A stretch of DNA of 64,000 nt from a virus (taxonomy: Duplodnaviria > Caudoviricetes), in IMG/VR virus record IMGVR_UViG_3300043422_000045, positions 1 through 64,000 of that record. One strand, written 5' to 3'. The stretch's first letter is position 1. Every line of letters starts with the position of its first letter. The notes under the pieces were generated by a model that saw only the letters and a program-made list of their open reading frames with translations, made no database searches and was not told the origin of the DNA. The position numbers were made by a program, and so were the translations under genes. Shown piece after piece: positions 13,544-64,000 of the stretch.

Positions 13544-13556
13544 TGATATATAGCAC

Positions 13557-14507
13557 ATGAGAGGTAAAAATAAAATCATGTTATTCGAGCAATTTTTAAA
13601 CGAGGCTTATAAAAGAGACGAGTTTCAAAAAGTTATAATTACGCGTAGAGCCGAATTAGACGATTCGTTTATTACTGGACCAAAATATACTCCTAAAGAT
13701 TATTGGGTGGTAGTTACCAGAGGCACTGAATTAGAAAGTGTACCTAAGGATTTGCCAGTTTTGTGTTATGATAAAAAGACTTTAGAAAAATTATTAGACG
13801 AAGGTATTATTCAAAATGATCAAGTTTATAATAAATTAGAAGCTCGTAAAAAAGTAAGTTCTAAAGCAGAATTCTATAAGTTACATACAGACAGCGGTTA
13901 TATTATGCCAACTGTTTTGGATAAAAATGGAATCAAAGATCTTAAGTTTCCTATTGTTGCAAAGCCAGATAATGAGCACAGCGGCTTGGGTATTCAAGTT
14001 TTTAAATCTAAAGAAGAATTAGATGACGCAGATCTAAGTAAATTTTCATCATTCTCAGAAAAAATAGATATTAAAGAAGAACATAGATTTTTTGTTTGGC
14101 GTGGAGAAATGATTCAGTGGACTCAAAGAAAACCAATGGATGACGAAACTGCAGATATTGCTAAGAAGAATCCAGATCAAGAAACAAACTTCTCGTATAT
14201 TTTAAGAAATGAGCAACCAAGTGACGACGTTAAAAAAGTAATAGCTTATTTTTCAGAAGCACATAGCGACTTAGATTTTTATGCTATTGATTTAGCAGAA
14301 ACAAAAGACGGTAAAATTTACGTCTTCGAAATGAATTCAGAACCTGGAGCATTATTTGGAGTTATGGCTCTCGTATATCAACGCATCTACCAAGACTGGT
14401 ATGAAAAAACTATAAGCGATGATACTGTTCAATTACTAAAAGATTTTAGACAAAAGGATATTGAAGCTAATAAGAAACAAAATCCTAACTGGAAGGTAAA
14501 AGAATAA
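13557..14507 (+). CDS. ATP-grasp ligase (RimK-like) with N-terminal capsid-targeting-like motif
   Basis: FPIVAKPDNEHSGLGI, EHRFFVW and FYAIDL...YVFEMNSEPG; N-terminal KIMLFEQFLNE. Confidence 0.8.
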   Translation: MRGKNKIMLFEQFLNEAYKRDEFQKVIITRRAELDDSFITGPKYTPKDYWVVVTRGTELESVPKDLPVLCYDKKTLEKLLDEGIIQNDQVYNKLEARKKVSSKAEFYKLHTDSGYIMPTVLDKNGIKDLKFPIVAKPDNEHSGLGIQVFKSKEELDDADLSKFSSFSEKIDIKEEHRFFVWRGEMIQWTQRKPMDDETADIAKKNPDQETNFSYILRNEQPSDDVKKVIAYFSEAHSDLDFYAIDLAETKDGKIYVFEMNSEPGALFGVMALVYQRIYQDWYEKTISDDTVQLLKDFRQKDIEANKKQNPNWKVKE

Positions 14508-14524
14508 GAACAAAAGATTTTTTT

Positions 14525-14758
14525 ATGGGTTATCCTAACAACACGTGTATGCATATCACAATATACGTGCATCACATGCAAATTGACGAACTGTTTGATT
14601 TTTTAAATGATAGAATCGACACACCTCCACCATATTGGTACCATCGCGAGGACGCACCTTATTCAATCTCAGGAGGTTATGCGGCTGTTAATGTAGATTA
14701 TCATAATTATCAAAAGATCAGAACTGAAAGAACATGGGACAGTCCCTTAAATATTTAA
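14525..14758 (+). CDS. Hypothetical protein
   Basis: 77-aa ORF filling the gap before a terminator/promoter element. Confidence 0.55.
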   Translation: MGYPNNTCMHITIYVHHMQIDELFDFLNDRIDTPPPYWYHREDAPYSISGGYAAVNVDYHNYQKIRTERTWDSPLNI

Positions 14759-14779
14759 AAACTTTTTTGAAAATAAGTT

Positions 14780-14828
14780 AGCCCAAATTTTTTTATTTGG
14801 GCTTTTTTGTGTATATTAGCTGTATAAT
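14780..14828 (+). promoter_or_regulatory. Early-type promoter fused with terminator hairpin (copy 1)
   Basis: AGCCCAAAT-tttttt-ATTTGGGCT then a T tract; ATTTTTT at 14787 and TATATTAGC at 14812 (25-bp offset). Confidence 0.7.
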
Positions 14829-14845
14829 AACTAAACAAAGAAATA

Positions 14846-15589
14846 ATGTATAAAGCAGAAGAACTTAAAAACATGCTTTTCGTAGATATCGAAACAGCAT
14901 CTTCTCATGAAAATTATGAATCGTTTGTAGATTCACTAGGACCTAATTCAAGTATGGAAGAATGGTGGGCTGATAAAGCGCAGTATCTTAAAAAAGATCG
15001 AGTAGAATTAAGTCAATTATCTAATGCAGAAATGTATAATACGCAAGCTGCTATATTTCCAGAATGGGGTCGCATTGTTTGTATCACCATCGGTCAGATT
15101 AAAATAGATTCAAACGGAATTCCTAATGATTTTAAAATGAGATCATTTGCAGGTGAAGATGAGAAGGCTATTTTAGAAGAATTCTTGCCAACACTCTCTG
15201 CTATTTTTTCAAAAGCGCCTTCTATTCGAATCGTCGGTTTCAATATTAAAGGCTTTGATATTCCATATATCTGTAAAAAAGCTATGATTCATGGTGTTAA
15301 ATTACCATATCAGTTTCATTTACAAAATGTAAAGCCATGGGACAATTGCCTTTTAGATATTTCAGATATTTGGAAATTTGGTGGTTGGAATGGTGCAAAG
15401 CTTGGCGTTGTATGTGAAGTGATGGGAGTTCCAAGTCCAAAAGAACAATTAGCTGGTGGAGAAGTTAGCGCTACCTTTTGGAGAGGTGATCTAAAGCTTA
15501 TTACAGAATATTGCGAAAGAGACGTTAAGGCTACCGCAAATGTCTTATTAAAAATGAGCGGCTTTGACACATTGACATTAGACTCTTAA
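14846..15589 (+). CDS. 3'-5' exonuclease, PolB-exo-like (DEDDy)
   Basis: LFVDIETA (ExoI), GFNIKGFDIPY (ExoII), YCERDV (ExoIII). Confidence 0.85.
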   Translation: MYKAEELKNMLFVDIETASSHENYESFVDSLGPNSSMEEWWADKAQYLKKDRVELSQLSNAEMYNTQAAIFPEWGRIVCITIGQIKIDSNGIPNDFKMRSFAGEDEKAILEEFLPTLSAIFSKAPSIRIVGFNIKGFDIPYICKKAMIHGVKLPYQFHLQNVKPWDNCLLDISDIWKFGGWNGAKLGVVCEVMGVPSPKEQLAGGEVSATFWRGDLKLITEYCERDVKATANVLLKMSGFDTLTLDS

Positions 15590-15595
15590 AATAAA

Positions 15596-15635
15596 TGACA
15601 ATATGTCAAATTATTTAGCTTGGTATAAAAATTGA
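15596..15635 (+). promoter_or_regulatory. Palindrome plus sigma54-like -24/-12 element upstream of Hsp20
   Basis: TGACA-ata-TGTCA (15596-15608) and TGGTAT-AAAAA-TTGA (15621-15635), against the consensus TGGCAC-N5-TTGC. Confidence 0.5.
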
Positions 15636-15685
15636 AGGATATTAATCAATGGCAATAAAGTCAGAAACTATAAATTATAAAAATT

Positions 15686-16060
15686 ATGTTTGGACACACA
15701 GGAAAAAATTCATTTGAAAAATTAGCTGAAAAAATGTTTGATAGTATTGAACCGACATGGAAACAAGAATTCAGATTTGCAAATCCGTTTAATGATACTA
15801 GTTTAGAGGATAATACATTAAGTATCGCATTACCTGGATTTTCTAAAAAGGACATTAAGATTGATGTTGACGGAGATTTACTAGTTATTTCTAGTAAGGT
15901 TGAAGAAGCTGATGAAACAAAATTTAAAAAATCTTTTACAAGATCATTTAGATTAATTAAAGACATAGATGTTGATACTATTAAAGCATCGATGGAAAAT
16001 GGTATTCTATACATCACATTCGAAAGAAAAAATGTGGCAAAAGAAATAAAAATATCTTAA
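15686..16060 (+). CDS. Small heat-shock protein (Hsp20/alpha-crystallin)
   Basis: ALPGFSKKDIKIDV, FTRSFRL, IKASMENGILYI. Confidence 0.9.
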   Translation: MFGHTGKNSFEKLAEKMFDSIEPTWKQEFRFANPFNDTSLEDNTLSIALPGFSKKDIKIDVDGDLLVISSKVEEADETKFKKSFTRSFRLIKDIDVDTIKASMENGILYITFERKNVAKEIKIS

Positions 16061-16063
16061 ATT

Positions 16064-16104
16064 ATTTTTTTATGTCAAATCTTTTTATTATATTTACAGT
16101 ATAA
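16064..16104 (+). promoter_or_regulatory. Early-type promoter (copy 2, no hairpin)
   Basis: ATTTTTT at 16064 and TATATTTAC at 16089. Confidence 0.7.
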
Positions 16105-16115
16105 AACTATAAGAT

Positions 16116-16412
16116 ATGTTTGCAGACTACGAAAACGACGAATTTGAAATGGATGACGAAATGTCACAAGAAGAAATTATTAACGCAAAGCAATTGTACA
16201 ATAGTTTAGTGGATAGATTAGTCCGCGAAAATTATGAATCTATTGCCAAAAATGGTATTGATATTGTAAATACTAAAATTCATAATCTCGAGCCAAAACA
16301 AATAGAACAATTACGAGGCACTTTAGATTTTATGATTGCATATTTTACAGAATTAGAAGAATATGAAAAATGTGCAGTTTTACACAAATACGTCGAAGAG
16401 CTCAATCAATAA
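16116..16412 (+). CDS. Small protein with C-terminal UVR (UvrB/C)-like motif
   Basis: YFTELEEYEKCAVL. Confidence 0.6.
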   Translation: MFADYENDEFEMDDEMSQEEIINAKQLYNSLVDRLVRENYESIAKNGIDIVNTKIHNLEPKQIEQLRGTLDFMIAYFTELEEYEKCAVLHKYVEELNQ

Positions 16413-16437
16413 TTTTTTAGAGGTAAATATAAAATTC

Positions 16438-16464
16438 AGGGCACATAAGTGCCCTTTGTTTTTT
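16438..16464 (+). terminator. Intrinsic terminator
   Basis: AGGGCAC-ataa-GTGCCCT then TTGTTTTTT. Confidence 0.8.
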
Positions 16465-16500
16465 AATCGAAATATATAATACAATATTAAAATAATAACT

Positions 16501-16692
16501 ATGGAACCAAAAGCATTAACAGACATTGCAACTCAACTTAAAAGAATTGCCGATATGATGGAACGTAATGAAAAGCGTAACCTTATTAAAAATGACGGTA
16601 TAGAAAAAGTTAAAGAGGCAGTTAAAAAACGCAAGAATGAATTATTACGAAACATTGAAAGTTCCCGAGACAGCAAGTCAGGAAGAGATTAA
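16501..16692 (+). CDS. Hypothetical basic coiled-coil protein
   Basis: 63-aa ORF after a late motif with an A-rich leader; overlaps dnaJ by 56 nt. Confidence 0.55.
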   Translation: MEPKALTDIATQLKRIADMMERNEKRNLIKNDGIEKVKEAVKKRKNELLRNIESSRDSKSGRD

Positions 16693-17446
16693 AGCCGCGT
16701 ATCGTAAACTTGCAAAAGAATATCACCCAGATAAAAATACGGGTGAAGATACCAAACAAAAATTTCAACAGATACAAGAAGCTTACTCTGTTTTAGGCGA
16801 TAAAAACAAAAAACAAGAGTATGATTCTAGAAATAGTCAACCTAATTTGGAAGACTTATTAAAAAACTGGGGCTTTGGTAATAATTTCGCAGATGATTTT
16901 AATATGCACTTCGGTGGATATAGAAATAATCCAAATGCCAAAGGACAAGATATTAGAGTTACAATTCCTATAACTGTGAGTGAAATCTATAATGGATTTT
17001 CTAGATCGATCGACGTCGGTACTGGCAGAATTAATGCTAATATACCTAAAGGTGCCAGAGAAGGTTCTAAATATAAAATGGCAGGCAAAGGGCAACCTAA
17101 TCCCTTTAATTCCAATGCGCCTGCTGGAGATCTAATCATTAATATCAATTTGCAATACGATGAAAATTATATTATACAAGGTGATGATGTGATGATAGAA
17201 AGCTTTGTTAAATTCTATGACATGATTTTAGGTACTAATTTAGAGATTAGAATACCAAGCGGTAAAATCTCTATAAAAATTCCAGAAAATACATCACCGG
17301 GTAAAATATTAAGAGTGCCTGGAAAAGGCTTACCAGTTGCGGGCACAGAAATGTCAGGCGCACTATTAATAAAAATTAATACTAATTTTCAAAATTTAAA
17401 TTCAGAGCAATTATCTTTAATAAATAGAGTTAAAGAATTAGATTAA
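16637..17446 (+). CDS. dnaJ: DnaJ-class chaperone (class B/CbpA-like, no zinc finger)
   Basis: NYYETL...IKAAYRKLAKEYHPDKN...AYSVL J domain; G/F region; C-terminal GDLII...LRVPGKGLP. Confidence 0.9.
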   Translation: MNYYETLKVPETASQEEIKAAYRKLAKEYHPDKNTGEDTKQKFQQIQEAYSVLGDKNKKQEYDSRNSQPNLEDLLKNWGFGNNFADDFNMHFGGYRNNPNAKGQDIRVTIPITVSEIYNGFSRSIDVGTGRINANIPKGAREGSKYKMAGKGQPNPFNSNAPAGDLIININLQYDENYIIQGDDVMIESFVKFYDMILGTNLEIRIPSGKISIKIPENTSPGKILRVPGKGLPVAGTEMSGALLIKINTNFQNLNSEQLSLINRVKELD

Positions 17447-17467
17447 TTTAAAAACACAACAACAGTT

Positions 17468-17659
17468 ATGATTATCATAGATGTAAACGGTAATATAGAA
17501 AAAGCTCTAAAAGAATATAAAAGAAAAGTTGCTAAAGTTAAACAAAACCAGCAACTTAGAAATAATCAAGAATTTGAAAAACCATCTGTAACTAGAAGAA
17601 CAGAAATAACCAAGGCCAAGTACGTTCAGGCTATTAAATCTCAAGCGGACCAAGATTAA
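17468..17659 (+). CDS. rpsU: Ribosomal protein bS21
   Basis: NIEKALKEYKRK...LR...FEKPSVTRR..I.KAKY; 63 aa, Bacteroidota-like. Confidence 0.9.
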   Translation: MIIIDVNGNIEKALKEYKRKVAKVKQNQQLRNNQEFEKPSVTRRTEITKAKYVQAIKSQADQD

Positions 17660-17747
17660 TTTTATTAACATAATAAAATTCTGCAATAATCCACTCGGTA
17701 AACGCTATGTAAATATATAGCATAAGATAAAAATACCACACGTACAC

Positions 17748-18005
17748 ATGAGCTACATATCAAATGAGGAGAAAGATCAACTCATGAGATCTAGTTACTA
17801 TATAATAACACGAAACTTTACTAAAACAGTAAATCGTTTCATTGCGTTCCAAGATGGAAGTAATTCTATTGAAATACCGCACGGTATAGGCCAAAGATCC
17901 AAATTTATAGATTTATTAATTAAATACTTCGAAGAAGTCGAAGAGTATGAGAAGTGCGACAAACTCGTGAAGCTGAAAGAGTTAGTTGTGGATGCAGGTG
18001 ATTAA
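17748..18005 (+). CDS. Small protein with C-terminal UVR-like motif
   Basis: YFEEVEEYEKCDKL, the same motif as ORF 16116. Confidence 0.6.
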   Translation: MSYISNEEKDQLMRSSYYIITRNFTKTVNRFIAFQDGSNSIEIPHGIGQRSKFIDLLIKYFEEVEEYEKCDKLVKLKELVVDAGD

Positions 18006-18030
18006 CCACAAATTAAACAAAAACTAAATT

Positions 18031-18768
18031 ATGCAAAAAAGATCAGCAGAAAGTAAAACAAAATCAACTAGCAGCAGACCAACGGCTGCCAAACCAAAAA
18101 AGACAACAGTTAAAGAATTAGATTTAGTAGGAGTACAATTAAAACCAAGTCAACAAGATTATTTTCAGCAGATCCAAAAGAACGAAATTACATTTTGTTC
18201 TGGACCAGCAGGTACGTCAAAAACATTTACAGCGTGTTTTACGTCATTACATTTATTAGCCACAAAACAAGTTTCTAAAATTATTTTATGTAAACCGATT
18301 CAAGAATCTGGAGAAAAGTTAGGGTTCTTACCCGGAGATATTGCAGACAAAATTGATCCATACATGCAATCTTATATTTCAAACTTCAAGAAGATTGTAG
18401 GTGATGAATTAACAGAAGGCTTAATTTCTTCTGGAGCAATAGAATTCAAACCGCTTGCATTTATGAGAGGAGATACCTTTGATGATGCTTTCATGATTCT
18501 AGATGAAGCACAAAATGCAACGTTTAAACAACTTATGTTGTTCGTAACTCGTATGGGTAAAAATTCTAAAGTTTTAGTGACAGGCGACGTTAGTCAGTAT
18601 GATATTCCTAAAGCAAGCGCAGGTCTTCCTGGATTTACAGCCTTAATGAAAGGTGTTAAAGGTGTAGGCGAACATACCTTTACCAACAAAGATATTGTAA
18701 GAGCTAAGATTTTACAAGATGTCGTAGACAGATACGACAAATGGAGAGTAGACAATCCAGAGAAATAA
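18031..18768 (+). CDS. phoH: PhoH-family ATPase
   Basis: GPAGTSKT, GEKLGFLPGD, AFMRGDTF, ILDEAQN, GDVSQYD. Confidence 0.95.
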   Translation: MQKRSAESKTKSTSSRPTAAKPKKTTVKELDLVGVQLKPSQQDYFQQIQKNEITFCSGPAGTSKTFTACFTSLHLLATKQVSKIILCKPIQESGEKLGFLPGDIADKIDPYMQSYISNFKKIVGDELTEGLISSGAIEFKPLAFMRGDTFDDAFMILDEAQNATFKQLMLFVTRMGKNSKVLVTGDVSQYDIPKASAGLPGFTALMKGVKGVGEHTFTNKDIVRAKILQDVVDRYDKWRVDNPEK

Positions 18769-18796
18769 AACAAAGTAAAGGACATGTGTATAACTA
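18768..18796 (+). promoter_or_regulatory. Middle-type promoter RAACAA-N15-TATAA (representative)
   Basis: Same 17-bp RAAC-to-TATAA spacing at 18768, 20525, 23309 and 23784; 18 bp at 21456. Confidence 0.65.
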
Positions 18797-18823
18797 TTAT
18801 AACTTTAATAATATACACATGTC
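18781..18823 (+). promoter_or_regulatory. Hairpin sequestering the RNase HII start codon
   Basis: GACATGTGTATA (18781-92) pairs perfectly with TATACACATGTC (18812-23, contains ATG 18819); inner TATTA/TAATA. Confidence 0.75.
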
Positions 18824-19451
18824 TGATACTAGATACGTAACACTCAAATCACATTATAACGAAGACCAATCAATCATAGAAGTTGGCGTAGACGAAGCTG
18901 GCCGAGGATCTCTTGCTGGTCCAGTCACAGTAGCTGCATGTATAATGCCAGTTAATTTTTCACATCCTTTAGTCAAAGATTCAAAGCTTCTTTCTGAAAA
19001 ACAAAAAGAAGAAGCGTATAAGATCGTAATGGCAAACGCAATAGCTTGGCATTGTGTGCATGTTGATGCCAAATTAATAGAAGAACAAAACATTCTAAAA
19101 GCAACTTTACACGGTATGATGTTGGCGTTAAGCGGTGTTGAAGAAACTACAGATTTTGATTTTATCTTAGTCGATGGAGATCAATTCCATGGATATAATG
19201 GTAAAAATTACGTAACGATCGTCGGCGGAGATAATAAATATACATCGATTGCTGCAGCTTCTATTATTGCAAAAATCAAACACGACAATTGGATGAGAGA
19301 ATGTGAAGAAGGTAAAATATATGGATGGGCTTCTAATAAAGGATATGGTACTAAACAACATTTAGATGCCATCAAAGAGCACGGTCCATCTGAACATCAC
19401 CGAACAAGTTTCATTTCACATATTGTTACAAAAACAGCAGAATTATTTTAA
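18819..19451 (+). CDS. rnhB: Ribonuclease HII
   Basis: VGVDEAGRGSLAGPV, VKDSKLLS, ILVDG, SIAAASIIAK, NKGYGT..H; ATG 18819 preferred to 18741. Confidence 0.95.
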   Translation: MSDTRYVTLKSHYNEDQSIIEVGVDEAGRGSLAGPVTVAACIMPVNFSHPLVKDSKLLSEKQKEEAYKIVMANAIAWHCVHVDAKLIEEQNILKATLHGMMLALSGVEETTDFDFILVDGDQFHGYNGKNYVTIVGGDNKYTSIAAASIIAKIKHDNWMRECEEGKIYGWASNKGYGTKQHLDAIKEHGPSEHHRTSFISHIVTKTAELF

Positions 19452-19795
19452 TGAAAAATTTATTTAATGGAATTATTTTATTGACGATCGGACAAGCTAT
19501 TGTTTGGTTTCAAACTAACGGTCAATTTGTATGGCCATTCTTTAAAAGAAATCCTTTAGTAATAGCATTAATCGGTGGTAGTATAGTTTCATATACATTT
19601 ATTCTCGGTACCAAAGAATTAGCAACTTATTATGAAGGTGCTCTTTGGCCTGGTAGATTTATTGGATTTACAGTCGGTATGTTTACATTTTCAGCCCTAA
19701 CATATTTAATGATGAATGAAGGTATTAATACAAAAACTGGCATTTCATTAATTTTAGCAGCAATTCTATTAGGCGTTCAGTTGTTCTGGAAATAA
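19451..19795 (+). CDS. Small four-helix membrane protein (DMT/SMR-like)
   Basis: 114 aa with four hydrophobic segments. Confidence 0.55.
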   Translation: MKNLFNGIILLTIGQAIVWFQTNGQFVWPFFKRNPLVIALIGGSIVSYTFILGTKELATYYEGALWPGRFIGFTVGMFTFSALTYLMMNEGINTKTGISLILAAILLGVQLFWK

Positions 19796-19796
19796 A

Positions 19797-19870
19797 TGTT
19801 AATAACTTTTAAAAATAAGTAAGCCCAAATTTTTTAGTTTGGGCTTTTTTTCGTATATTTACAGAGTAAT
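19797..19870 (+). promoter_or_regulatory. Early-type promoter fused with terminator hairpin (copy 3)
   Basis: TGTTAATAACTTT at 19797; AAGCCCAAA/TTTGGGCTT stem then a T tract; ATTTTTT at 19829 and TATATTTAC at 19854. Confidence 0.75.
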
Positions 19871-19886
19871 TAAAAACAAATACAAT

Positions 19887-20075
19887 ATGAAATACTTTTT
19901 AGTCTTAAGCACAGATCAAATAGCAGAAGTTAAAAAACAAAATTTAGAAGTTGAAATTTTAAACGAAGATATTACGCCTTCAGGTGGAATCTCTATTCAA
20001 ATTACTATCAAAGACGGTACAGATCTTTTATCTTTATTTTATGCTGGCGTTTATTACGCGCTTGATAAAAAATAA
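19887..20075 (+). CDS. Hypothetical early protein (62 aa)
   Basis: ATG 19887 after an A-rich leader; the track start 19839 lies inside the promoter hairpin. Confidence 0.6.
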   Translation: MKYFLVLSTDQIAEVKKQNLEVEILNEDITPSGGISIQITIKDGTDLLSLFYAGVYYALDKK

Positions 20076-20085
20076 ATGTTTAGAT

Positions 20086-20127
20086 ATTTTTTTATCTCAA
20101 ATCTTTTTAGTATATTTACTGTATAAA
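20086..20127 (+). promoter_or_regulatory. Early-type promoter (copy 4, no hairpin)
   Basis: ATTTTTT at 20086 and TATATTTAC at 20111; nearly identical to 16064-16104. Confidence 0.7.
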
Positions 20128-20140
20128 CAAAAACAAAAAT

Positions 20141-20539: not shown

Positions 20540-20555
20540 TCAACATATAATAGAT

Positions 20556-21482: not shown

Positions 21483-21497
21483 AAAGATAAAAACAAT

Positions 21498-21752: not shown

Positions 21753-21757
21753 AAATC

Positions 21758-21783
21758 AAAAGAGGACAAAGTCCTCTTTTTTT
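21758..21783 (+). terminator. Intrinsic terminator
   Basis: AAAAGAGGAC-aaa-GTCCTCTTTT then TTT. Confidence 0.85.
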
Positions 21784-21803
21784 ACGTAGATATATAATCT
21801 AAT

Positions 21804-22496: not shown

Positions 22497-22529
22497 TCTT
22501 TAAAAACATAATAAAATAATATCATTATC

Positions 22530-23249: not shown

Positions 23250-23274
23250 TATATAAGCGTATCATCTTATATTT

Positions 23275-23306: not shown

Positions 23307-23355
23307 GTAAACAAATCCCAGGAAATTAGTATAAATAACTAATAAGATTTAAAAT

Positions 23356-26313: not shown

Positions 26314-26320
26314 TATTAAA

Positions 26321-32919: not shown

Positions 32920-32936
32920 TATAGATAAATATTCTA

Positions 32937-35159: not shown

Positions 35160-35195
35160 GAGCAATATATAACTTAATTATTTAAAAACAAAAAA

Positions 35196-36464
35196 ATGAC
35201 AACACAAAAAAGAACAAGACTTTCAGCTACTGTAGAATTAGAAGCTCCAGCAATTGAAGTTGTAAAAAAAGAAACAAAAGAAACTAATCGTTTCCTAAAC
35301 GCAAATCAATCTCTTGAAGATTTTGATTGGGACACGCATGCTGCAGATTGTCCAAGTAGAATGAGAAAGGGAAATCCTTTTGTAAAAACCAGCGGAGACA
35401 CAAAGGTTTATTACCAAGGTGCTGATGCACAAAAATGGTTTGATTTATACGAAGGTATTATGGCAGATTTCAAAGCTGTTATTGAACCAAGCGAGCATCA
35501 TGATGGTACAATTTACTCTATGAGTAACGATTGGGCTATGTTAGACGTAGGTCACAGAGAAATGGTTTATATCGATTTAGGTAGAGAACCATCTTCTATT
35601 AGAAGTCTTATTGAAGTTGGAGCTAAATTCACTGTTAGAATTTTAAGCACTAAAAATCAAAAAGGATTTATCTTAGGTTCTATTAGCGAAGGAATGCGTC
35701 AAACTATTATCAATGATTTGAAAAAATCAATTGAGACTGGAAATACAGCATACATCGGAACCGTTACCAGCATGATTCCAGGCGGTGGTTACATGGTTAA
35801 CATCCAGGGAATTGACTGTTTTATGCCAGGCTCATTAGCAGGTGCTAATAAATTAGCTAATTTTGAATCTATTATTGGTACTGAAATGTACGTTGTTCCA
35901 GTTTCTTATTCGCACGAAAAAGGTACAGTTGTCGTATCACATAGAAAGTATTTGCAAGCAATGATTCCTAACGAAGTTGAAAAACTTAAAACGGTTGCTA
36001 AAGATAAAACATTTACTGGAGAAGTTACAGGTTCTGCTAAATTTGGTATCTTTATTGAATTTAACGGATGTTTAACTGGTATGATTCACATCAATGACTT
36101 AAACGAAGAATGGGTTGCTAAATTAGAAGCCAAAGAAGTTAATCCAGGTGATGCAATAGGGTTTGGTATTAAAGAAATCATCTCTGAAAAGAAAATTATG
36201 TTAACTCAAAAAGAAGAAGTTGAAGTAATTAATCCATGGGACGGCTTAGCTGCTAAATATACAGTGCCTGTTTTAGTTCAAGGTACAGTTAAAGCTACGA
36301 AAGACTATGGTATCTTTATCACAATTGAAGAAGGTATAGTTGGTTTATTACACATTTCTGAATTAGAAGGCATTGATACTTCTACAATTAAAAAAGGAGA
36401 TCCTATTGCAGTTACTGTAACTAGAATTGATGAAGCTAGCAGAAAAGTTTTCTTAAAACTTTAA
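35196..36464 (+). CDS. rpsA: Ribosomal protein bS1-like (four S1 domains)
   Basis: EDFDWD N-terminal motif; S1 repeats GGYMVNIQGIDCFMPGS, FGIFIEF...GMIHINDL and YGIFITIEEGIVGLLHISEL. Confidence 0.9.
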   Translation: MTTQKRTRLSATVELEAPAIEVVKKETKETNRFLNANQSLEDFDWDTHAADCPSRMRKGNPFVKTSGDTKVYYQGADAQKWFDLYEGIMADFKAVIEPSEHHDGTIYSMSNDWAMLDVGHREMVYIDLGREPSSIRSLIEVGAKFTVRILSTKNQKGFILGSISEGMRQTIINDLKKSIETGNTAYIGTVTSMIPGGGYMVNIQGIDCFMPGSLAGANKLANFESIIGTEMYVVPVSYSHEKGTVVVSHRKYLQAMIPNEVEKLKTVAKDKTFTGEVTGSAKFGIFIEFNGCLTGMIHINDLNEEWVAKLEAKEVNPGDAIGFGIKEIISEKKIMLTQKEEVEVINPWDGLAAKYTVPVLVQGTVKATKDYGIFITIEEGIVGLLHISELEGIDTSTIKKGDPIAVTVTRIDEASRKVFLKL

Positions 36465-36465: not shown

Positions 36466-36540
36466 TGTTAATAACTTTATAAAATTAATTAGCCCGAGAT
36501 TTTTTAATCTCGGGTTTTTTGTTTATATTTACATTATAAT
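36466..36540 (+). promoter_or_regulatory. Early-type promoter fused with terminator hairpin (copy 5)
   Basis: TGTTAATAACTTT at 36466; AGCCCGAGAT/ATCTCGGGTT stem then a T tract; ATTTTTT at 36499 and TATATTTAC at 36524. Confidence 0.75.
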
Positions 36541-37385: not shown

Positions 37386-37416
37386 TATATAGTGAACTAA
37401 TAACATTCATTATATA
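37386..37416 (+). promoter_or_regulatory. Hairpin over the amidoligase start region, overlapping the late motif
   Basis: TATATAGTGAA pairs with TTCATTATATA (one G-U); ends 1 nt before ATG 37418; GATATATA at 37382. Confidence 0.6.
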
Positions 37417-37417: not shown

Positions 37418-38719
37418 ATGATAAACCTTAAAGACTCAGACATTTTATCAAAAGGCTTGGTTGGGGTAGAATTCGAATTCTATTCTAATACGAGTATTGA
37501 AGATACAGCCAAAGAAGTTGGCAAATTACTTGGTAAGAAAATACGTGTAGAAAAGAAAGCCCATAGTGAATTTCAACCAACGCAGGATGAATTTAAAATG
37601 GAACCAGACATGTCCGGTGGAGCTGGATTAATTGAATTAGTTACAGGAGCTGTTCCTTATTCTGCAGGTAGATTAATGATTATCAAGATGTGCGACTGGA
37701 TTAAAAAGAATGGTTACACTACAGATAGATCTTCTATTCATTTAAATTTAAGTTTTAATCCAGAATTATCTGGTAATAAAAACTTACTTTCTAAAATGAA
37801 TCCTTTAAAATTTATCTTGGATTTTAATGAAGACAAAGTTTGGAAAGCATTTCCAAATAGACAAGATTCAACATACGCAAAATCAATAAAGTTTGTAATT
37901 CCTAGAATTGAAACATATTCTTATAACGGAGAGCAAATTAGCTCAAACAACTTTATATTTCCTAGAACAAAATATTATGGAGTTAACTTTGAAAAACTTC
38001 AAAAGAACTATCTTGAATTTAGATATTTAGGTGGTGAAAATTGGCATGAAAAATCTGCTAAGATTTTAAATCTTATGGATTATTTCTTGGTTCAATTGTG
38101 GACAACTGCAAGTGACAATCAAACATCTTTTAATGATTTAAATAAAATTGAGCTTAAAAAGATTTTAGCAGATAACAAAAAGGTAATTGATTTAAGAGTC
38201 GATTGGAGAAATATCGAAAAGAACTTTCCAAAATGTAAATTCACGGTGGACATGTCAAATGATCCTGGCGTTTTAGATTTATATTGGCCACAGATAAAAG
38301 AAAGAGTAGCTTTGTTATTTACTCAAGGCCAAATGGACAAAGGAAATATCAATTATGATTCTGATGCTGGTAGAATTCAAGTACAAGACGGACATTTACC
38401 GTATTGCTTTCAATTAGAAGCTTATGAATTTATTGGATGTTCATTACAAGGTGAATTTACATATTGTGATTTCTTTACATGTGATATACAGTCATCTGAT
38501 ATTAAAAATTGCAATATCTATTATAACACCCAAGTCAACAATTCAAAAGTAGGTTCATCACAAACAGCATGGAATGCAGTGCTTAAAAACTGTTACGTTT
38601 ATGGCACTGACACTATATTTAAAGGAACTATGCAAGGCGGAATCTTTAGAGAAGGTAAATATGATGCAAAATTTGCAAAATTCGATGACGTTGAGATAAT
38701 AAAATCTTACAAAATATAA
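37418..38719 (+). CDS. Putative amidoligase (COOH-NH2 ligase, Amidoligase_2-like) with C-terminal beta-helix-like repeats
   Basis: VGVEFEF, EPDMS, IELVTG, SSIHLNLS, KYYGVNF and LEFRYLGG motifs. Confidence 0.75.
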   Translation: MINLKDSDILSKGLVGVEFEFYSNTSIEDTAKEVGKLLGKKIRVEKKAHSEFQPTQDEFKMEPDMSGGAGLIELVTGAVPYSAGRLMIIKMCDWIKKNGYTTDRSSIHLNLSFNPELSGNKNLLSKMNPLKFILDFNEDKVWKAFPNRQDSTYAKSIKFVIPRIETYSYNGEQISSNNFIFPRTKYYGVNFEKLQKNYLEFRYLGGENWHEKSAKILNLMDYFLVQLWTTASDNQTSFNDLNKIELKKILADNKKVIDLRVDWRNIEKNFPKCKFTVDMSNDPGVLDLYWPQIKERVALLFTQGQMDKGNINYDSDAGRIQVQDGHLPYCFQLEAYEFIGCSLQGEFTYCDFFTCDIQSSDIKNCNIYYNTQVNNSKVGSSQTAWNAVLKNCYVYGTDTIFKGTMQGGIFREGKYDAKFAKFDDVEIIKSYKI

Positions 38720-39562: not shown

Positions 39563-39577
39563 TAAAATATATACTTA

Positions 39578-51225: not shown

Positions 51226-51274
51226 ATTAGTCCTTCTATTTAAGATATATAAACTAATAAATAGAAGGACTAAT
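51226..51274 (+). promoter_or_regulatory. Perfect 17-bp hairpin with late motif in the loop, ending 2 nt before ATG 51277
   Basis: ATTAGTCCTTCTATTTA / TAAATAGAAGGACTAAT; loop aGATATATAaactaa; no U tract. Confidence 0.8.
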
Positions 51275-61319: not shown

Positions 61320-61331
61320 TAAATAATATAA

Positions 61332-63377
61332 ATGGCTAGATCATCAAAATTTTTAAGATTAGATAAAGACGTATTGCTGGAATTCATTTACCACGATCAG
61401 TCTAATCCTGCTTTGTCTACTATTGAAACTGATAATAATGGAAGCCATATTAAATTTTTAAATACGGTTGACGGAGATAATACAGCGCCAAGATACTTAA
61501 TTCACGAATTAGGTGGAGATGTTGTTAATTTTACTGTAGATATTTCAGGTATTTACATTGCAGTAAACAATTTTTCTAGAAGAGAATTACAATTACAAAA
61601 TGGCAAAACTTACGAGTTTGATTTATCTAATTTGGCAATACCTTCTAATTTTTCTATTAATGCAGGTGGTAGTTTTACTATAATTGGCTCTAAAGCTATT
61701 TATGTTCCTAATACAAATGGAACTTATTCATATTCATATAATGATAATGGTATCACTTATAACGGTGGTTCAATTGTAGTAAGTGATAAAGCTAATCCTT
61801 TATTTGCAACGCCAGATCAAGAAACTGGAAATACAATTAAAACCGGAACTGGTGAAGTTGGTAGATACTACGCAGTAGAATATAACACTGACGGAACTAA
61901 ATTTGCATTATTAGACAATACTTTAGGTTACTTAGCTACTCAAAATTGGAATGGTAGTACATCTATTTCTAATGAAGTTATTGCAAGTAATTTAGTTAAC
62001 TACGATACTATAAGATTGCACTTAAGAACTGGATTTTCATTCTCTAATAGAGGATATGAAGGTTTCTTATTTCAAGTAAAAGCTAAAAGAAATTCAGGTG
62101 TTTACAATTACTTTACTTCTTTAGCATATTTAAATTATTCAAACTACGAACTTCAAAATCCAACACCTTTTGTTTTAGGAGGAGTTGCATTTTCTAAATT
62201 CATTGAAGTTAAAGTACCTTCATTAGTTGACATGTATGATAATACATTAAACTTAGATTTTGAAGAAGCATTCTTTGGAACTCAAGGTACACAAGATGCT
62301 TTAAATCCTACTTCTAATTATGAAATAGTTTTTAAATTAATCGATAGTGTTTATGAAGTTAATAATGTAAAATATGTAGATGCTGCCGAAGTTCTATTAG
62401 TTACATTAGCTCAAGAAGATGAATATCAAGATATTTCAGCTGTTATTGAAGAAGCAGCTGACGGAGATTACTTTAAAATCTATGGATTAAAAGATGGATC
62501 TATTGATAATTTTGCTAGATATGTAAATCTAAGACATCAAACTTCAGGAGATGACATTACAGTATTTCATGATATAGAAGTTTTAGAACAATCTGGAAAT
62601 ACATTTAATCAAACTTCAAATGTAACTTATGCCCAAGTTGATAATTTAGACAAGCCTATTTTATTTAGACCTATTATACAATCTGCTAATATATCAAATT
62701 CTTTTTTAATTAATTATACATTAAGAATTTACAACGAAACAGATAATACTCAAATCGTAAAGCAAGCTTCTTTAATTTATAAGAAACCTAGCAAGTACGC
62801 TAAGAGAATGATTCAATTGAATAATGTTTTAGCAACTACTAAAGTTTACAATAAAATTGCTAGCACAGCTGCAAGTTCTTCTATTAATAATTTTGTTAAT
62901 TCTATTAGACCTTCAGTTGGCGAAACTAAATATGTACCAGTTGCAGTGAATACAACTAACATTAATGTATCAAGCACGAACGTACAATTAGATGGAGCAA
63001 ATGTAACTGCTTTAAATAATATGACATATTATGGAATGGGTCAGGGCTCTATAACGCTTTCTAAAGTTTCAGATAATTTTATCAAGTTTAGAATTGCACA
63101 ATTAGAAGCTGATACTTTAAAAGAAGTTTCATTGGTAAATGCTGAACAAATAGAATTGATATTAAAAAGTGGAAACATCGAACAAATCATATATGCAGAT
63201 CCTACATTTCCAAATGTAGATATGGGTAAAGGTGAAGTTTTATTTAAAATTGATAAATCTGTTGCAACAAGATTTGATCAACCAGATGCTAATATAGCAA
63301 GCGATACATTTTACATAAATATTAAAAACGGTTCAACATCATCTATGTTGTATCATGGAACAGTAAACATCATATAA
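61332..63377 (+). CDS. Hypothetical structural protein (681 aa)
   Basis: Long beta-rich ORF coupled to the tube-fold gene. Confidence 0.55.
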   Translation: MARSSKFLRLDKDVLLEFIYHDQSNPALSTIETDNNGSHIKFLNTVDGDNTAPRYLIHELGGDVVNFTVDISGIYIAVNNFSRRELQLQNGKTYEFDLSNLAIPSNFSINAGGSFTIIGSKAIYVPNTNGTYSYSYNDNGITYNGGSIVVSDKANPLFATPDQETGNTIKTGTGEVGRYYAVEYNTDGTKFALLDNTLGYLATQNWNGSTSISNEVIASNLVNYDTIRLHLRTGFSFSNRGYEGFLFQVKAKRNSGVYNYFTSLAYLNYSNYELQNPTPFVLGGVAFSKFIEVKVPSLVDMYDNTLNLDFEEAFFGTQGTQDALNPTSNYEIVFKLIDSVYEVNNVKYVDAAEVLLVTLAQEDEYQDISAVIEEAADGDYFKIYGLKDGSIDNFARYVNLRHQTSGDDITVFHDIEVLEQSGNTFNQTSNVTYAQVDNLDKPILFRPIIQSANISNSFLINYTLRIYNETDNTQIVKQASLIYKKPSKYAKRMIQLNNVLATTKVYNKIASTAASSSINNFVNSIRPSVGETKYVPVAVNTTNINVSSTNVQLDGANVTALNNMTYYGMGQGSITLSKVSDNFIKFRIAQLEADTLKEVSLVNAEQIELILKSGNIEQIIYADPTFPNVDMGKGEVLFKIDKSVATRFDQPDANIASDTFYINIKNGSTSSMLYHGTVNII

Positions 63378-63928
63378 TGATTTTAAATAGTAGAAACAAT
63401 TTATTTAACTTTAAGTTACCTAGGACTTTTATTCCTAAGGAAGTTGCTGACAAATATAAAAAATATTTGAACAGAATTCCTGGTAATTTAATAACTGAGC
63501 CTATTGACTTTGTTAATTATTCTATTCAAGGTATCAATTTACCTGGTTTAAGTTTTGATCCTATTAGTCAAAATAATAATGATGGTACCACTAGATATTT
63601 TAGAGGAGCAATACCTATTCAAAATGTAATTGACAGAACATTTACAATTAAGATGCAAATGTTAGATGGATATATTAACTATTGGATTATGCAAGACACT
63701 CTTTTGTATTATTATTCAAAAGCTGTTAAAGAACCATATACTTCTGATTTAAAATTACAAATCATGGATGCAGAAGGAATTCATTTAGTTTCTGCAGTGT
63801 TTGAAAAACCAATATTACACCAAATTTCAGAGATTGATCTAAATATGAGTTCTAACATTGCTGAGTTTGATACTTTCGAATTATCATTCACGTATAATAA
63901 ATTTAATATCGAACTAGAAATAGACTAA
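63377..63928 (+). CDS. Tail-tube-fold protein (gp3/gp19-like)
   Basis: IQGINLPGLSF, TFTIKMQM.D...NYW and FDTFELSFTYNKF pattern. Confidence 0.6.
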   Translation: MILNSRNNLFNFKLPRTFIPKEVADKYKKYLNRIPGNLITEPIDFVNYSIQGINLPGLSFDPISQNNNDGTTRYFRGAIPIQNVIDRTFTIKMQMLDGYINYWIMQDTLLYYYSKAVKEPYTSDLKLQIMDAEGIHLVSAVFEKPILHQISEIDLNMSSNIAEFDTFELSFTYNKFNIELEID

Positions 63929-63938
63929 TATATAGGAT

Positions 63939-64000
63939 ATGAAAACATTTGTACAACACTTAGAAGAGCAAAAAGTAACCGGTTCAGAATGGACTTTATT
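63939..64000 (+). CDS. 3'-truncated protein with capsid-targeting-like N-terminus
   Basis: ATG 63939 reads MKTFVQHLEEQKVTGSEWTL... to the window end; late motif 4 nt upstream. Confidence 0.6.
   Translation, partial: MKTFVQHLEEQKVTGSEWTL

What the first reader, a model, noticed from the sequence alone, without database searches (positions are those of the whole stretch)
13545..63941. Candidate phage translation-control system: bS21, bS1, RimK-like ligase, leaderless late mRNAs and start-gating hairpins
Seen: genes for two 30S proteins of the initiation platform (bS21 at 17468, bS1 at 35196), both downstream of the late motif; a RimK-like ATP-grasp (13557); almost no SD sequences; late motifs 4-5 nt from ATG at five genes; four hairpins covering start regions. 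Known: in Bacteroidota the anti-SD is buried in a bS21/bS18/bS6 pocket, bS1 unfolds structured AU-rich leaders and influences leaderless translation, and RimK glutamylates bS6. Phage bS21 and bS1 are each reported already. Inference: the parts act together to build a late-infection ribosome tuned to SD-less or leaderless phage mRNAs. I know of no description of this combination with its cis-elements.
Basis: partly seen in the sequence, partly recalled or inferred. Interest (0 to 1): 0.85.

Follow-up and report, generated by a model that had tools for sequence, protein, structure and literature searches.

The report
Jumbo phage bS21, bS1 and leaderless promoters
A freshwater jumbo phage of Bacteroidota really encodes two ribosomal proteins of the initiation platform and a phage-specific promoter that sometimes sits so close to the start codon that the messages should have no leader, but the supposed RimK enzyme is a different ligase that looks packaged into the capsid.

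Summary
The window is part of a ~256-kb jumbo myophage. bS21 (17468-17659) is genuine and of Bacteroidia type, with the anti-SD-stacking Tyr and no SD. The 422-aa protein at 35196-36464 is a four-domain bS1 homologue (D1-D4) in its own promoter-terminator unit inside the baseplate block; a model places its N-terminal part on F. johnsoniae uS2 (ipSAE 0.65, best control 0.00). SD motifs are nearly absent, as expected for Bacteroidota. The "late motif" is real: R-ATATATA-R-N3-A, strand-specific, intergenic, in front of portal, protease, sheath and fibre genes. A phage ECF sigma made from a host-type promoter probably reads it. Spacing to ATG is bimodal (1-7 nt or 18 nt and more). The exact 4-nt spacing is conserved at the ATP-grasp and gp25-like genes in distant relatives, which predicts leaderless mRNAs. 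The ATP-grasp is not RimK; it has a conserved 77-aa partner and a T4-like capsid-targeting N-terminus, so it is more likely an ejected enzyme. Start-region hairpins are few; the predicted start of transcription lies inside them. Phage S1 with S21 and no SD is already published, so novelty lies in the promoter and leaderless class and the packaged ligase.

The parts
13546..13552 (+). ATATATA promoter motif exactly 4 nt before the ATP-grasp ATG (predicted leaderless transcript starting at 13557)
   Evidence: the same 4-nt geometry in 26 of 57 distinct upstream sequences of relatives
13557..14507 (+). ATP-grasp ligase (R2K_3-like, not RimK) with a T4-CTS-like N-terminus
14525..14758 (+). conserved 77-aa partner gene of the ATP-grasp, often overlapping its stop codon in relatives; no known family
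14780..14803 (+). intrinsic-terminator-like hairpin ending the DUF6445-GT2-ATP-grasp-77aa unit
16438..16455 (+). terminator-like hairpin before the DnaJ-bS21 unit
16472..16478 (+). ATATATA motif heading the small ORF-DnaJ-bS21 unit (A at +11 = 16483)
16637..17446 (+). DnaJ (J domain plus C-terminal domain), directly upstream of bS21
17468..17659 (+). bS21, Bacteroidia type; Tyr52 aligns with F. johnsoniae Tyr54; no SD upstream
35165..35171 (+). ATATATA motif of the S1 unit (predicted TSS 35176, 20-nt unstructured A-rich leader)
35196..36464 (+). four-domain bS1 homologue (OB domains about 101-162, 186-248, 273-337, 359-421) with a lineage-specific N-terminal 97 residues
36491..36516 (+). terminator-like hairpin right after S1
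37386..37416 (+). hairpin whose 5' arm overlaps the ATATATA motif (37383-37389) and whose 3' arm ends 1-2 nt before the amidoligase ATG; the structure is kept in relatives
37418..38719 (+). Amidoligase_2-domain protein, next to S1 in 33 of 37 related loci
39567..39573 (+). ATATATA motif 4 nt before the gp25-like baseplate gene (39578-39931); geometry kept down to 38% protein identity
63928..63934 (+). ATATATA motif 4 nt before the ATG at 63939
32925..32931 (+). ATAAATA variant 5 nt before the baseplate-hub-like gene 32937
51226..51274 (+). 17-bp hairpin with the ATATATA motif (51245-51251) in its loop, ending 3 nt before the ATG at 51277
   Evidence: folded on the near-identical relative
36524..36531 (+). 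host-type -7 element (TATATTTA) of the inserted gene 36560, an example of the early promoter class
   Evidence: compared with the F. johnsoniae promoter description

Best explanation
The window is part of a ~256-kb jumbo myophage of freshwater Bacteroidota, probably with a Flavobacteriia-like host. Transcription (inferred): early genes use host-type promoters (T-tract, TAnnTTT[G/A]). One early gene encodes an ECF-type sigma factor, and no phage RNA polymerase beta-type subunit was found. That sigma most likely directs host RNA polymerase to a phage promoter R-ATATATA-R-N3-A, which starts transcription at the conserved purine 5 nt after the motif. This is the same geometry as the host -7 element. 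The promoter precedes portal, head protease, sheath, fibre and baseplate genes, and also the S1 gene, the DnaJ-bS21 unit and the ATP-grasp gene. They are therefore middle or late products. Where the motif lies exactly 4 nt before ATG, the mRNA should begin with AUG and be leaderless. Otherwise leaders are about 15-50 nt, A-rich, unstructured and without SD. Translation (inferred): phage bS21 keeps the Bacteroidia Tyr that holds the anti-SD and lacks the SD that makes host rpsU self-limiting. The four-domain bS1 homologue keeps a uS2-binding-like D1 and a highly conserved D2. Both probably enter or supplement host 30S subunits late, to sustain or bias initiation on SD-less phage mRNAs, as already proposed for other phages. 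The ATP-grasp is not part of this. It carries a T4-like capsid-targeting peptide and a dedicated 77-aa partner, so it is more likely packaged into the head and ejected into the next host.
For: Phage and host: a near-identical complete genome of 256,444 bp with terminal repeats and 27 tRNAs; baseplate, sheath, portal, protease and major head protein hits; the best solved relative of bS21 is F. johnsoniae 7JIL; the A peaks at -3 and -11..-13 match the F. johnsoniae pattern (Baez 2019, passages). Promoter: 73 vs 10 by strand, and 57 of 73 intergenic where 8.1% of the genome is intergenic. A at +11 in 39 of 48 sites that are not 4 nt from an ATG, purine in 96%, neighbouring positions 31-62% A. Spacers in the complete relative are 2-7 (14 sites), none at 8-18, then 19 or more. 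In 12 distant loci they are 1-7 (20 sites), none at 8-17. The motif is kept before S1 in 14 of 14 and before the amidoligase in 15 of 15 distinct upstream sequences. It precedes portal, protease, sheath and fibre genes. ECF sigma (r2 plus r4_2) behind a TATATTTG host-type promoter; no RNA polymerase beta hit; sigma homologues in 7 of 20 fragments. Host -7 element to TSS distance of 4-5 nt. Leaderless class: ATG at +11 in 8 of 56 sites against 3.3% background, all 8 being gene starts; exact 4-nt spacing at the ATP-grasp in 26 of 57 distinct upstreams and at gp25-like genes down to 38% identity. bS21: Tyr52 aligns with Tyr54; 0 of 20 distinct phage bS21 genes have an SD core, whereas host rpsU has an extended SD (abstracts and passages). 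S1: colinear with D1-D4; D2 has 43 of 86 invariant columns. Complex model with RS2_FLAJ1: ipSAE 0.65, best of 3 controls 0.00. That mark was reached by 58 of 80 solved complexes and 2 of 110 mismatched pairs. The runs share at least 58% of contacts and partner pLDDT is at least 64. E. coli S1-uS2 complexes are solved, so this may reflect likeness only. ATP-grasp. The CTS-like peptide is on 25 of 332 proteins against about 1.9 expected, at residue 7 in 20 of the 25. T4 IPII and IPIII start MKTYQEFIAE, and their targeting and cleavage logic is in a review (passages).
Against: No transcription start was measured. The four metatranscriptome runs are contigs only, and some contigs cross the predicted promoters. 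The sigma-to-motif link is inference; the sigma gene was absent from 13 of 20 fragments, all of them incomplete. The motif also precedes a ribonucleotide reductase small subunit gene, so 'late' may mean middle plus late. S1 scores far below all rpsA cut-offs and lacks D5-D6, and its N-terminal 97 residues match nothing solved. Al-Shayeb 2020 notes that true rpS1 is hard to tell from other S1-domain proteins. S1 sits among baseplate genes, which is unexplained. The first ATG of some ATP-grasp homologues may not be the used start: database proteins P0046-P0052 begin at a downstream Met. The capsid-targeting reading rests on motif likeness alone. The ExGD motif that defines R2K.3 is absent.
Confidence: 0.55

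Rival explanations
1. One reading: bS21, bS1 and a RimK-like ligase that glutamylates bS6 act as one system and build a late ribosome specialised for leaderless or SD-less phage mRNAs, with hairpins gating the starts.
For: The three genes co-occur in 8 of 14 large fragments plus G001, G004 and G018. They share a promoter class. In F. johnsoniae, bS21, bS18 and the bS6 C-terminal helix hold the anti-SD, and bS1 stimulation depends on bS21 (Arpin 2026, passages). Two distant phage groups keep bS21 3-4 kb from the ATP-grasp.
Against: No RimK family match. Fold neighbours are Ddl, ArgX/LysX, PsnB and synapsin rather than RimK in the rows listed. The ligase has its own 77-aa partner and a capsid-targeting-like N-terminus. 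It lies 63 and 132 kb from bS21 in G014 and G020, and next to the sigma gene in 5 relatives. The hairpins enclose the predicted start of transcription and are not enriched. In E. coli leaderless translation needs neither S1 nor S21 (recalled, not checked here).
Confidence: 0.1
2. The S1-domain protein works off the ribosome, for example as an RNA chaperone, an mRNA protector, a cofactor of a nuclease or polymerase, or a virion or baseplate-associated protein. bS21 would then be an independent auxiliary gene.
For: It has four domains only, scores below the rpsA cut-offs, and has a lineage-specific N-terminus. It holds a fixed place between baseplate-hub and wedge genes in 33 or more of 37 loci. 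Host S1 is used off the ribosome by T4 RegB (annotation note) and by Q-beta (PhiMa05 paper, passage). Al-Shayeb 2020 leaves 'on or off the ribosome' open.
Against: Colinearity with D1-D4, strongest conservation in D2, and a predicted uS2 interface with zero-scoring controls. Co-occurrence with bS21 in 10 of the 12 large fragments that hold S1, G008 and G002 being the exceptions.
Confidence: 0.25
3. ATATATA is not a promoter but an RNA-level signal, such as a processing site or a translation enhancer placed like an SD 4-7 nt before some starts.
For: No start of transcription was measured. A spacing of 4-7 nt resembles SD spacing. Metatranscriptome contigs run across several motif sites.
Against: Most sites lie 19-57 nt before the ATG. 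A conserved purine sits at a fixed +11 whatever the distance to the ATG. No site has a spacer of 8-18 nt. The geometry equals that of the host -7 element. A phage sigma factor is present. Motifs often follow terminators directly.
Confidence: 0.1

Closest known systems
Phage-encoded bS21 of Bacteroidetes-infecting lake phages (Chen et al. 2022, PMC9723584)
   Same: Short bS21 most like the Flavobacteriia protein, an aromatic residue at the Tyr54 position, a divergent N-terminal helix, expression with structural genes, Hsp20 nearby, freshwater origin.
   Different: Here bS21 follows DnaJ in an auxiliary block (exonuclease, HSP20, DnaJ, PhoH, RNase HII) and is not beside the terminase, capsid and protease genes. 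The genome also encodes a bS1 homologue. The lack of the host-type SD is noted here.
rpS1 plus rpS21 of huge phages (Al-Shayeb et al. 2020, PMC7162821)
   Same: The closest phage relatives of both proteins are huge-phage records LR7565xx and LR745206: S1 31-36% identical, bS21 45-55%; 5 of the 6 records hit by S1 also hold bS21. That paper already links putative rpS1 with missing SD sequences.
   Different: A distinct lineage of about 256 kb. Here the S1 gene has a fixed place in the baseplate block, and a promoter, a terminator and a predicted uS2 interface are defined for it.
Bacteroidia primary promoter (-7 element TAnnTTTG, 4-5 nt to the TSS; Baez et al. 2019) and the T4 late promoter TATAAATA read by gp55 (recalled)
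   Same: A single AT-rich element close to the start, the same distance to the start, and a phage sigma-like factor redirecting host RNA polymerase.
   Different: The sequence is ATATATA. The sigma is ECF-like with regions 2 and 4. A conserved subset of promoters abuts the start codon.
T4 capsid targeting sequence of internal proteins and Alt
   Same: An N-terminal peptide with two aromatic residues three apart followed by [ILV]-x-E. It sits on many unrelated proteins, including an enzyme and a small protein encoded between the portal and protease genes. A T4-like head protease is present.
   Different: The peptide is 13 residues instead of 10, on 25 proteins, in a Bacteroidota jumbo phage. 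No proteomic evidence.
RimK (bS6 poly-glutamate ligase) and R2K-clade ATP-grasps (Burroughs et al. 2015, PMC4431377)
   Same: ATP-grasp fold with the conserved Lys, Glu and Asp set; predicted peptide-ligase chemistry; R2K ligases were already noted in jumbo phages as possible modifiers of host proteins.
   Different: No RimK family match. It has E-M-N, not the ExGD of R2K.3. It has a dedicated 77-aa partner and a capsid-targeting-like N-terminus.

Membership tests
bS21 (PF01165 / TIGR00030) | score above the curated cut-offs | tested here: met
   43.1 vs 27 bits; 31.7 vs 28.95
bS21 (PF01165 / TIGR00030) | Bacteroidia-specific aromatic residue (Tyr54 of F. johnsoniae) that stacks on A1534 of the anti-SD | tested here: met
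   ungapped alignment to 7JIL chain z puts Tyr52 on Tyr54; role of Tyr54 from Chen 2022 and Arpin 2026
bS21 (PF01165 / TIGR00030) | incorporation into 30S subunits | not testable with these tools
   needs ribosome proteomics
bS1 (rpsA) | tandem S1 (OB) domains colinear with D1-D4 | tested here: met
   residues 98-420 align to 20-344 of E. coli bS1 and 48-369 of F. johnsoniae bS1; four beta-barrels in the model
bS1 (rpsA) | NCBIfam equivalog cut-off | tested here: not met
   best 152.2 bits vs 624; all rpsA models far below their cut-offs
bS1 (rpsA) | six-domain architecture of Gram-negative bS1 | tested here: not met
   422 aa, four domains, ends after D4
bS1 (rpsA) | D1 and N-terminal segment bind uS2 | tested here: inconclusive
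   ipSAE 0.65, best control 0.00; mark reached by 58 of 80 solved and 2 of 110 mismatched pairs; a like complex is solved, so this may be memory. An F-x-W-x-x-aromatic motif (F43, W45 invariant) resembles FLANFNWHNF of F. johnsoniae bS1 but was not aligned by the profile
RimK (PF08443) | family profile match | tested here: not met
   no hit at E<=0.01; none at E<=0.1 in the complete relative, while 13 of 14 control genomes ring; only a weak PHROG 2599 hit, E 2e-6
RimK (PF08443) | bS6 C-terminus as substrate | not testable with these tools
   no assay; context points elsewhere
R2K.3 ATP-grasp (PF14243) | profile above the gathering score | tested here: met
   41.8 vs 26.3 bits
R2K.3 ATP-grasp (PF14243) | ExGD in place of ExN in the last kinase-like strand (Burroughs 2015) | tested here: not met
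   E258-M-N/S-S-E-P-G in all 21 aligned sequences (feature)
Promoter of a phage sigma regulon | strand-specific intergenic enrichment with a fixed distance to an initiating purine | tested here: met
Promoter of a phage sigma regulon | mapped 5' triphosphate ends | not testable with these tools
   only assembled contigs of RNA runs were available
Leaderless mRNA | transcript begins at the A of AUG | tested here: inconclusive
   inferred from the +11 rule and the conserved 4-nt spacing; not measured
T4-type capsid targeting sequence | N-terminal aromatic-x-x-aromatic-[ILV]-x-E shared by unrelated proteins, together with a T4-like prohead protease | tested here: met
   25 of 332 proteins vs about 1.9 expected; T4 IPII and IPIII N-termini; protease PHROG 207, E 8.5e-42
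T4-type capsid targeting sequence | packaging and cleavage after Glu | not testable with these tools
   needs virion mass spectrometry

The most novel reading that the evidence does not exclude
A lineage of Bacteroidota jumbo phages re-equips the host 30S platform with a co-adapted pair. One member is bS21 that escapes the host's SD-based autoregulation; the other is a truncated bS1 that ends at D4, the domain placed next to mRNA positions -12 to -15. The phages also use an ECF-sigma promoter whose fixed geometry makes truly leaderless mRNAs for a conserved subset of genes. In addition they deliver an ATP-grasp peptide ligase through the capsid, and it modifies a host translation or transcription component at the start of the next infection.
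Probability: 0.1. Interest if true: 0.85.

Novelty: new variant of a known kind. Interest (0 to 1): 0.6.

Why it matters
Bacteroidia ribosomes hide their anti-SD sequence in a pocket made by bS21, bS18 and bS6, and recent work suggests that bS1 needs bS21 to stimulate SD-less initiation. A phage lineage that carries both proteins gives a natural test of whether changing platform composition redirects translation. For that test it offers a defined promoter class, a conserved set of predicted leaderless genes, and unstructured A-rich leaders. The promoter rule (ATATATA, then 4 nt, then the start) is simple enough to test with reporters in Flavobacterium. The capsid-targeting-like peptide on 25 proteins, one of them an ATP-grasp ligase, would extend T4-style delivery of internal proteins to Bacteroidota jumbo phages and points to a set of ejected effectors.

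Tried and rejected
Megablast of 22 kb of the window against GenBank phages found nothing; relatives were reached through proteins instead.

RimK membership was rejected.

The idea of generally structured start regions was rejected. So was an enrichment of hairpins at motif sites: 10 of 56 vs 7 of 57 with z<-2, and 8 vs 4 when at least 6 pairs must also span the predicted start.

RNA evidence: four of four freshwater metatranscriptome runs hold contigs over 21001-41000. They are assembled contigs, so they give no starts, ends or usable levels, and DNA carry-over cannot be excluded. Some contigs cross the S1 promoter, and contig ends near 36517 coincide with strain variation. I draw no conclusion on expression from them.

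The N-terminal 110 residues of S1 alone matched nothing meaningful among solved structures. The ESM Atlas gave nothing for the 77-aa protein, and Pfam gave nothing either.

The scan of bacterial genomes with the S1 profile found one locus only, on a contig of a Flavobacteriaceae MAG with a phage-type S1. It is no more than a weak host hint, and it did not give me a host bS1 for comparison.

The paper by Iyer et al. 2009 on amidoligases is not held, so what I say about Amidoligase_2 beyond the Pfam hit is recalled.

ATAAATA as a general late motif is not supported: 63 vs 59 by strand. A subset may work, with A at +11 in 17 of 24 intergenic sites.

I first took the 540-aa gene at 104593 of the record for a GroEL because of its C-terminus; PHROGs shows a portal protein.

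Supplementary Table 8 of Al-Shayeb 2020 (ribosome binding sites vs rpS1) and the supplementary tables of Chen 2022 (lists of bS21 phages and neighbouring genes) may already include this lineage.

Literature searches behind the statements on what is in print. One search found 0 papers with 'capsid targeting', 'Flavobacterium' and 'phage'. One search listed 15 papers with 'leaderless', 'Bacteroidetes', 'phage' and 'promoter'; by their titles and abstract openings none describes leaderless phage promoters in Bacteroidota. I read passages of one of them.

Full report
WHAT THE WINDOW IS. The window is the first 64 kb of a 111,650-bp virus record. A 93-97% identical record of 256,444 bp has terminal repeats and is rated complete. 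It shows that the phage is a jumbo phage with 27 tRNA genes. Nearly all genes lie on one strand: 104 of 109 in my simple gene call. PHROGs and Pfam identify a baseplate hub with lysozyme, a gp25-like wedge protein, a gp6-like wedge protein, fibres, sheath, portal, head protease and major head protein. Megablast found no close relative in GenBank phages.

THE THREE PROTEINS: bS21. bS21 (17468-17659) passes both curated cut-offs. Its best solved relative is F. johnsoniae bS21 (7JIL). In the ungapped alignment Tyr52 sits on Tyr54, the Bacteroidia-specific residue that stacks on the anti-SD (Chen 2022; Arpin 2026). The phage copy has no SD. None of 20 distinct phage bS21 genes in related loci has an SD core at -20..-4. 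Host rpsU of Flavobacteriales carries an extended SD that makes it self-limiting. The inference is that the phage copy is made by ordinary bS21-replete ribosomes and escapes that circuit.

THE THREE PROTEINS: S1. The 422-aa protein (35196-36464) aligns over residues 98-420 with D1-D4 of E. coli bS1 and of F. johnsoniae bS1. The model shows four OB barrels (mean pLDDT 71.8, pTM 0.36). It scores far below all rpsA cut-offs and has no D5-D6. Among 12 phage homologues D2 is the most conserved part, with 43 of 86 invariant columns. The N-terminal 97 residues are specific to the lineage, with invariant F43, W45, C52 and P53. An F-x-W-x-x-aromatic motif there recalls FLANFNWHNF of F. johnsoniae bS1, which contacts uS8, but the profile did not align the two. 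A complex model of residues 1-190 with F. johnsoniae uS2 scored ipSAE 0.65, with 0.00 as the best of three controls. That mark was reached by 58 of 80 solved complexes and 2 of 110 mismatched pairs. The runs share at least 58% of contacts, and partner pLDDT is at least 64. Because E. coli S1-uS2 complexes are solved, this shows likeness and not proof.

THE THREE PROTEINS: THE ATP-GRASP. The ATP-grasp (13557-14507) folds confidently (pLDDT 89.8). Its neighbours in the PDB are Ddl, ArgX/LysX, PsnB and synapsin. Pfam gives R2K_3 and no RimK. It has E-M-N rather than the ExGD of R2K.3.

NO SD. Core SD tetramers occur at -18..-4 in 2 of 109 genes of the record and 4 of 332 genes of the complete relative, against about 6% of random coding windows. 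A peaks at -3 and at -11 to -13. This is the F. johnsoniae pattern (Baez 2019) and is ordinary for a Bacteroidota phage.

THE MOTIF. In the complete relative ATATATA occurs 73 times on the coding strand and 10 times on the other. Fifty-seven of the 73 are intergenic, although only 8.1% of the genome is intergenic. A Markov-1 simulation of the intergenic DNA gives 8.9 +/- 2.8 occurrences against 52 observed. The flanks are R at -1 (53 of 57) and A or G at +7. The fifth base after the motif is A in 39 of 48 sites that are not 4 nt from an ATG (purine in 96%), while neighbouring positions have 31-62% A. In F. johnsoniae the -7 element lies 4-5 nt from the start of transcription, so I read +11 as the start.

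The motif stands before the portal, head protease, sheath and fibre genes and one ribonucleotide reductase gene, and 116 nt before the major head protein gene. A second promoter class looks like the host's (T-tract, then TATATTT[G/A]) and precedes, among others, a 199-aa ECF-type sigma factor. No RNA polymerase beta gene was found. The simplest model is an early phage sigma that turns on the ATATATA regulon. This is inference. Sigma homologues were seen in 7 of 20 related fragments, all incomplete.

LEADERLESS CLASS. Spacers between the motif and the ATG are bimodal. In the complete relative they are 2 (1 site), 4 (8), 5 (2) and 7 (3), none from 8 to 18, and then 19-57. Twelve distant loci give 1-7 (20 sites), none from 8 to 17, and then 18 or more. 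ATG stands at +11 in 8 of 56 sites against a 3.3% background, and all 8 are gene starts.

The 4-nt geometry is kept at the ATP-grasp gene in 26 of 57 distinct upstream sequences, with protein identity down to about 32% and otherwise unrelated flanks. It is also kept at the gp25-like gene down to 38% identity, sometimes as ATACATA with 5 nt. In the window the motif lies 4 nt before 13557, 39578 and 63939, and 7 nt before 21804 and 26373. ATAAATA lies 5, 4 and 6 nt before 32937, 36560 and 61332. Together these features predict transcripts that begin at, or 1-3 nt before, AUG.

Two caveats apply. No start of transcription was measured. For some ATP-grasp homologues a downstream Met could be the real start.

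TRANSCRIPTION UNITS. Terminator-like hairpins at 10736-10767 and 14780-14803 bracket DUF6445, GT2, the ATP-grasp and the 77-aa gene. A terminator at 16438-16455 is followed by ATATATA at 16472, a small conserved ORF, DnaJ and bS21. S1 has ATATATA at 35165 and a terminator at 36491-36516.

HAIRPINS. Start regions are unstructured as a rule. S1 leaders fold to about 0 kcal/mol in most relatives: the MFE was 0.0 in 6 of 11 distinct sequences, and the lowest was -5.8. One hairpin is conserved in structure but not in sequence. It lies upstream of the amidoligase gene and appears in 14 of 14 distinct sequences, with a mean z of about -3.0. Its 5' arm contains the motif and the predicted start lies in the loop. 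It can therefore form only on read-through RNA, or act as a 3' hairpin for the upstream gene. The same architecture occurs at 51277, and in the relative it occurs as a true terminator with a T-run. Overall, hairpins are not clearly enriched at motif sites.

RELATIVES AND CO-OCCURRENCE. Thirty-seven IMG/VR loci hold S1 homologues at 45-100% identity. Synteny is fixed: hub, X, S1, amidoligase, g38729, gp25-like, wedge. Of 14 large fragments picked by an ATP-grasp hit, 9 hold S1, 11 hold bS21 and 8 hold all three. G001, G004 and G018 also hold all three. G016 and G017 hold bS21 only. All fragments but G001 are 21-76% complete, so absences are weak evidence. The distances between the three genes grow in distant relatives, up to 63 and 132 kb between the ATP-grasp and bS21. 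In five of them the ATP-grasp lies within 1-2 kb of the sigma gene. Co-occurrence therefore looks like shared descent within a lineage rather than an operon-like module.

THE ATP-GRASP REINTERPRETED. Its most constant neighbour is a 77-81-aa protein directly downstream: 34 of 80 loci by tblastn, often with overlapping stop and start. That protein has no known family.

The ligase begins MRGKNKIMLFEQFLNE, and F13 and E16 are invariant in the family. The same peptide, MKH[IV]KLFE[QE]F[VIL]NE, opens 25 of 332 proteins of the complete relative, where about 1.9 are expected. In 20 of the 25 the motif starts at residue 7. The carriers include 13 consecutive genes and the small gene between the portal and the head protease. 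T4 IPII and IPIII begin MKTYQEFIAE. In T4 residues 4 and 7 target the protein to the prohead core, and residues 8 and 10 direct cleavage after Glu (review passages). The aromatic-x-x-aromatic-[ILV]-x-E logic is the same. I therefore read the ligase as a probable capsid-packaged, ejected enzyme, comparable to T4 Alt. This would explain why an enzyme gene sits behind a late promoter. It is inference from a motif. S1 and bS21 do not carry the peptide.

WHAT IS KNOWN ALREADY. Al-Shayeb 2020 reported S1 and S21 in huge phages, a model of ribosome hijacking, and the link between putative rpS1 and missing SD sequences. Chen 2022 reported late bS21 expression in Bacteroidetes phages, the Tyr54 point, and Hsp20 neighbours. 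R2K ligases in jumbo phages were noted by Iyer 2021. I found none of the following in the held library: the ATATATA promoter with its +11 start, the conserved leaderless subset, the SD-less phage rpsU seen against host autoregulation, the S1 unit inside the baseplate block with a predicted uS2 interface, and the capsid-targeting-like peptide in a Bacteroidota phage. Supplements could not be read.

VERDICT. Interest 0.6; a new variant of a known kind.

Noticed in passing
window 13557-13604, 22530-22568, 36560-36598; record G000 71999, 76414, 78451, 92643, 106225; G001 (reverse complement) 56-63 kb: A near-identical N-terminal peptide, MKH[IV]KLFE[QE]F[VIL]NE, opens 25 of 332 proteins of the complete relative (8 of 104 plus-strand genes in this record), where about 1.9 are expected. 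It resembles the T4 capsid targeting sequence MKTYQEFIAE. The carriers include 13 consecutive genes and the gene between the portal and the head protease.
   Followed up: partly
window 37418-38719: An Amidoligase_2-domain protein (27.2 bits vs cut-off 22) stands directly after S1 in 33 of 37 related loci. It has its own ATATATA motif and a structurally conserved hairpin. It could be a second peptide-ligase-type enzyme near a ribosomal-protein gene.
   Followed up: partly
window 36560-37369: A 269-aa gene with a host-type promoter and the capsid-targeting-like N-terminus is inserted between S1 and the amidoligase in 10 of 37 loci only: 8 close relatives plus L013 and L033. It looks like a moron.
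   Followed up: partly
G001 14494-15093 (outside the window): A phage ECF-type sigma factor (199 aa, regions 2 and 4_2) lies behind a perfect host-type TATATTTG promoter. In five distant relatives it lies within 1-2 kb of the ATP-grasp gene.
   Followed up: partly
window 14846-21482: An auxiliary block holds a PolB-like 3'-5' exonuclease, HSP20, DnaJ, bS21, PhoH, RNase HII and the UV endonuclease UvdE. The order ATP-grasp, 77-aa gene, exonuclease, HSP20, g16116, DnaJ is kept in many relatives.
   Followed up: partly
window 16501-16692: A small ORF overlaps the DnaJ start. Its peptide (...LKRIADMMER...) matches the C-terminus of a longer upstream ORF in relatives, so it is probably real.
   Followed up: partly
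window 3-1535 and 8778-10697; 5229-6413; 10802-13543: Collagen-repeat fibre proteins, one with an endosialidase-chaperone domain; a strong DUF2827 protein (319 bits); and a DUF6445 gene plus a 604-aa GT2 glycosyltransferase upstream of the ATP-grasp.
   Followed up: no
window 22530-23249: A 239-aa acidic, repeat-rich protein with the capsid-targeting-like N-terminus, an ATATATA promoter and a strong terminator (23275-23301). Its bins had the highest contig word depth in three of four RNA runs, which cannot be taken as expression level.
   Followed up: no
G012 75391-76676; G006 95162-96382: The S1 homologue of G012 is split into three adjacent frames, and that of G006 has one in-frame TAA. These may be frameshifts, decay or assembly errors.
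   Followed up: no
L177 (contig of a Flavobacteriaceae MAG): The only hit of the phage S1 profile in 185,579 species genomes is a phage-type S1 (49% identical) on a 57.8-kb contig binned with a Flavobacteriaceae MAG. This is a weak hint to the host.
   Followed up: no
window 14525-14758: The 77-aa partner of the ATP-grasp contains an internal ELFDFLND stretch. It resembles the N-terminal peptide but ends in Asp, and in T4 an Asp at that place blocks cleavage while allowing targeting. This may be chance.
   Followed up: no
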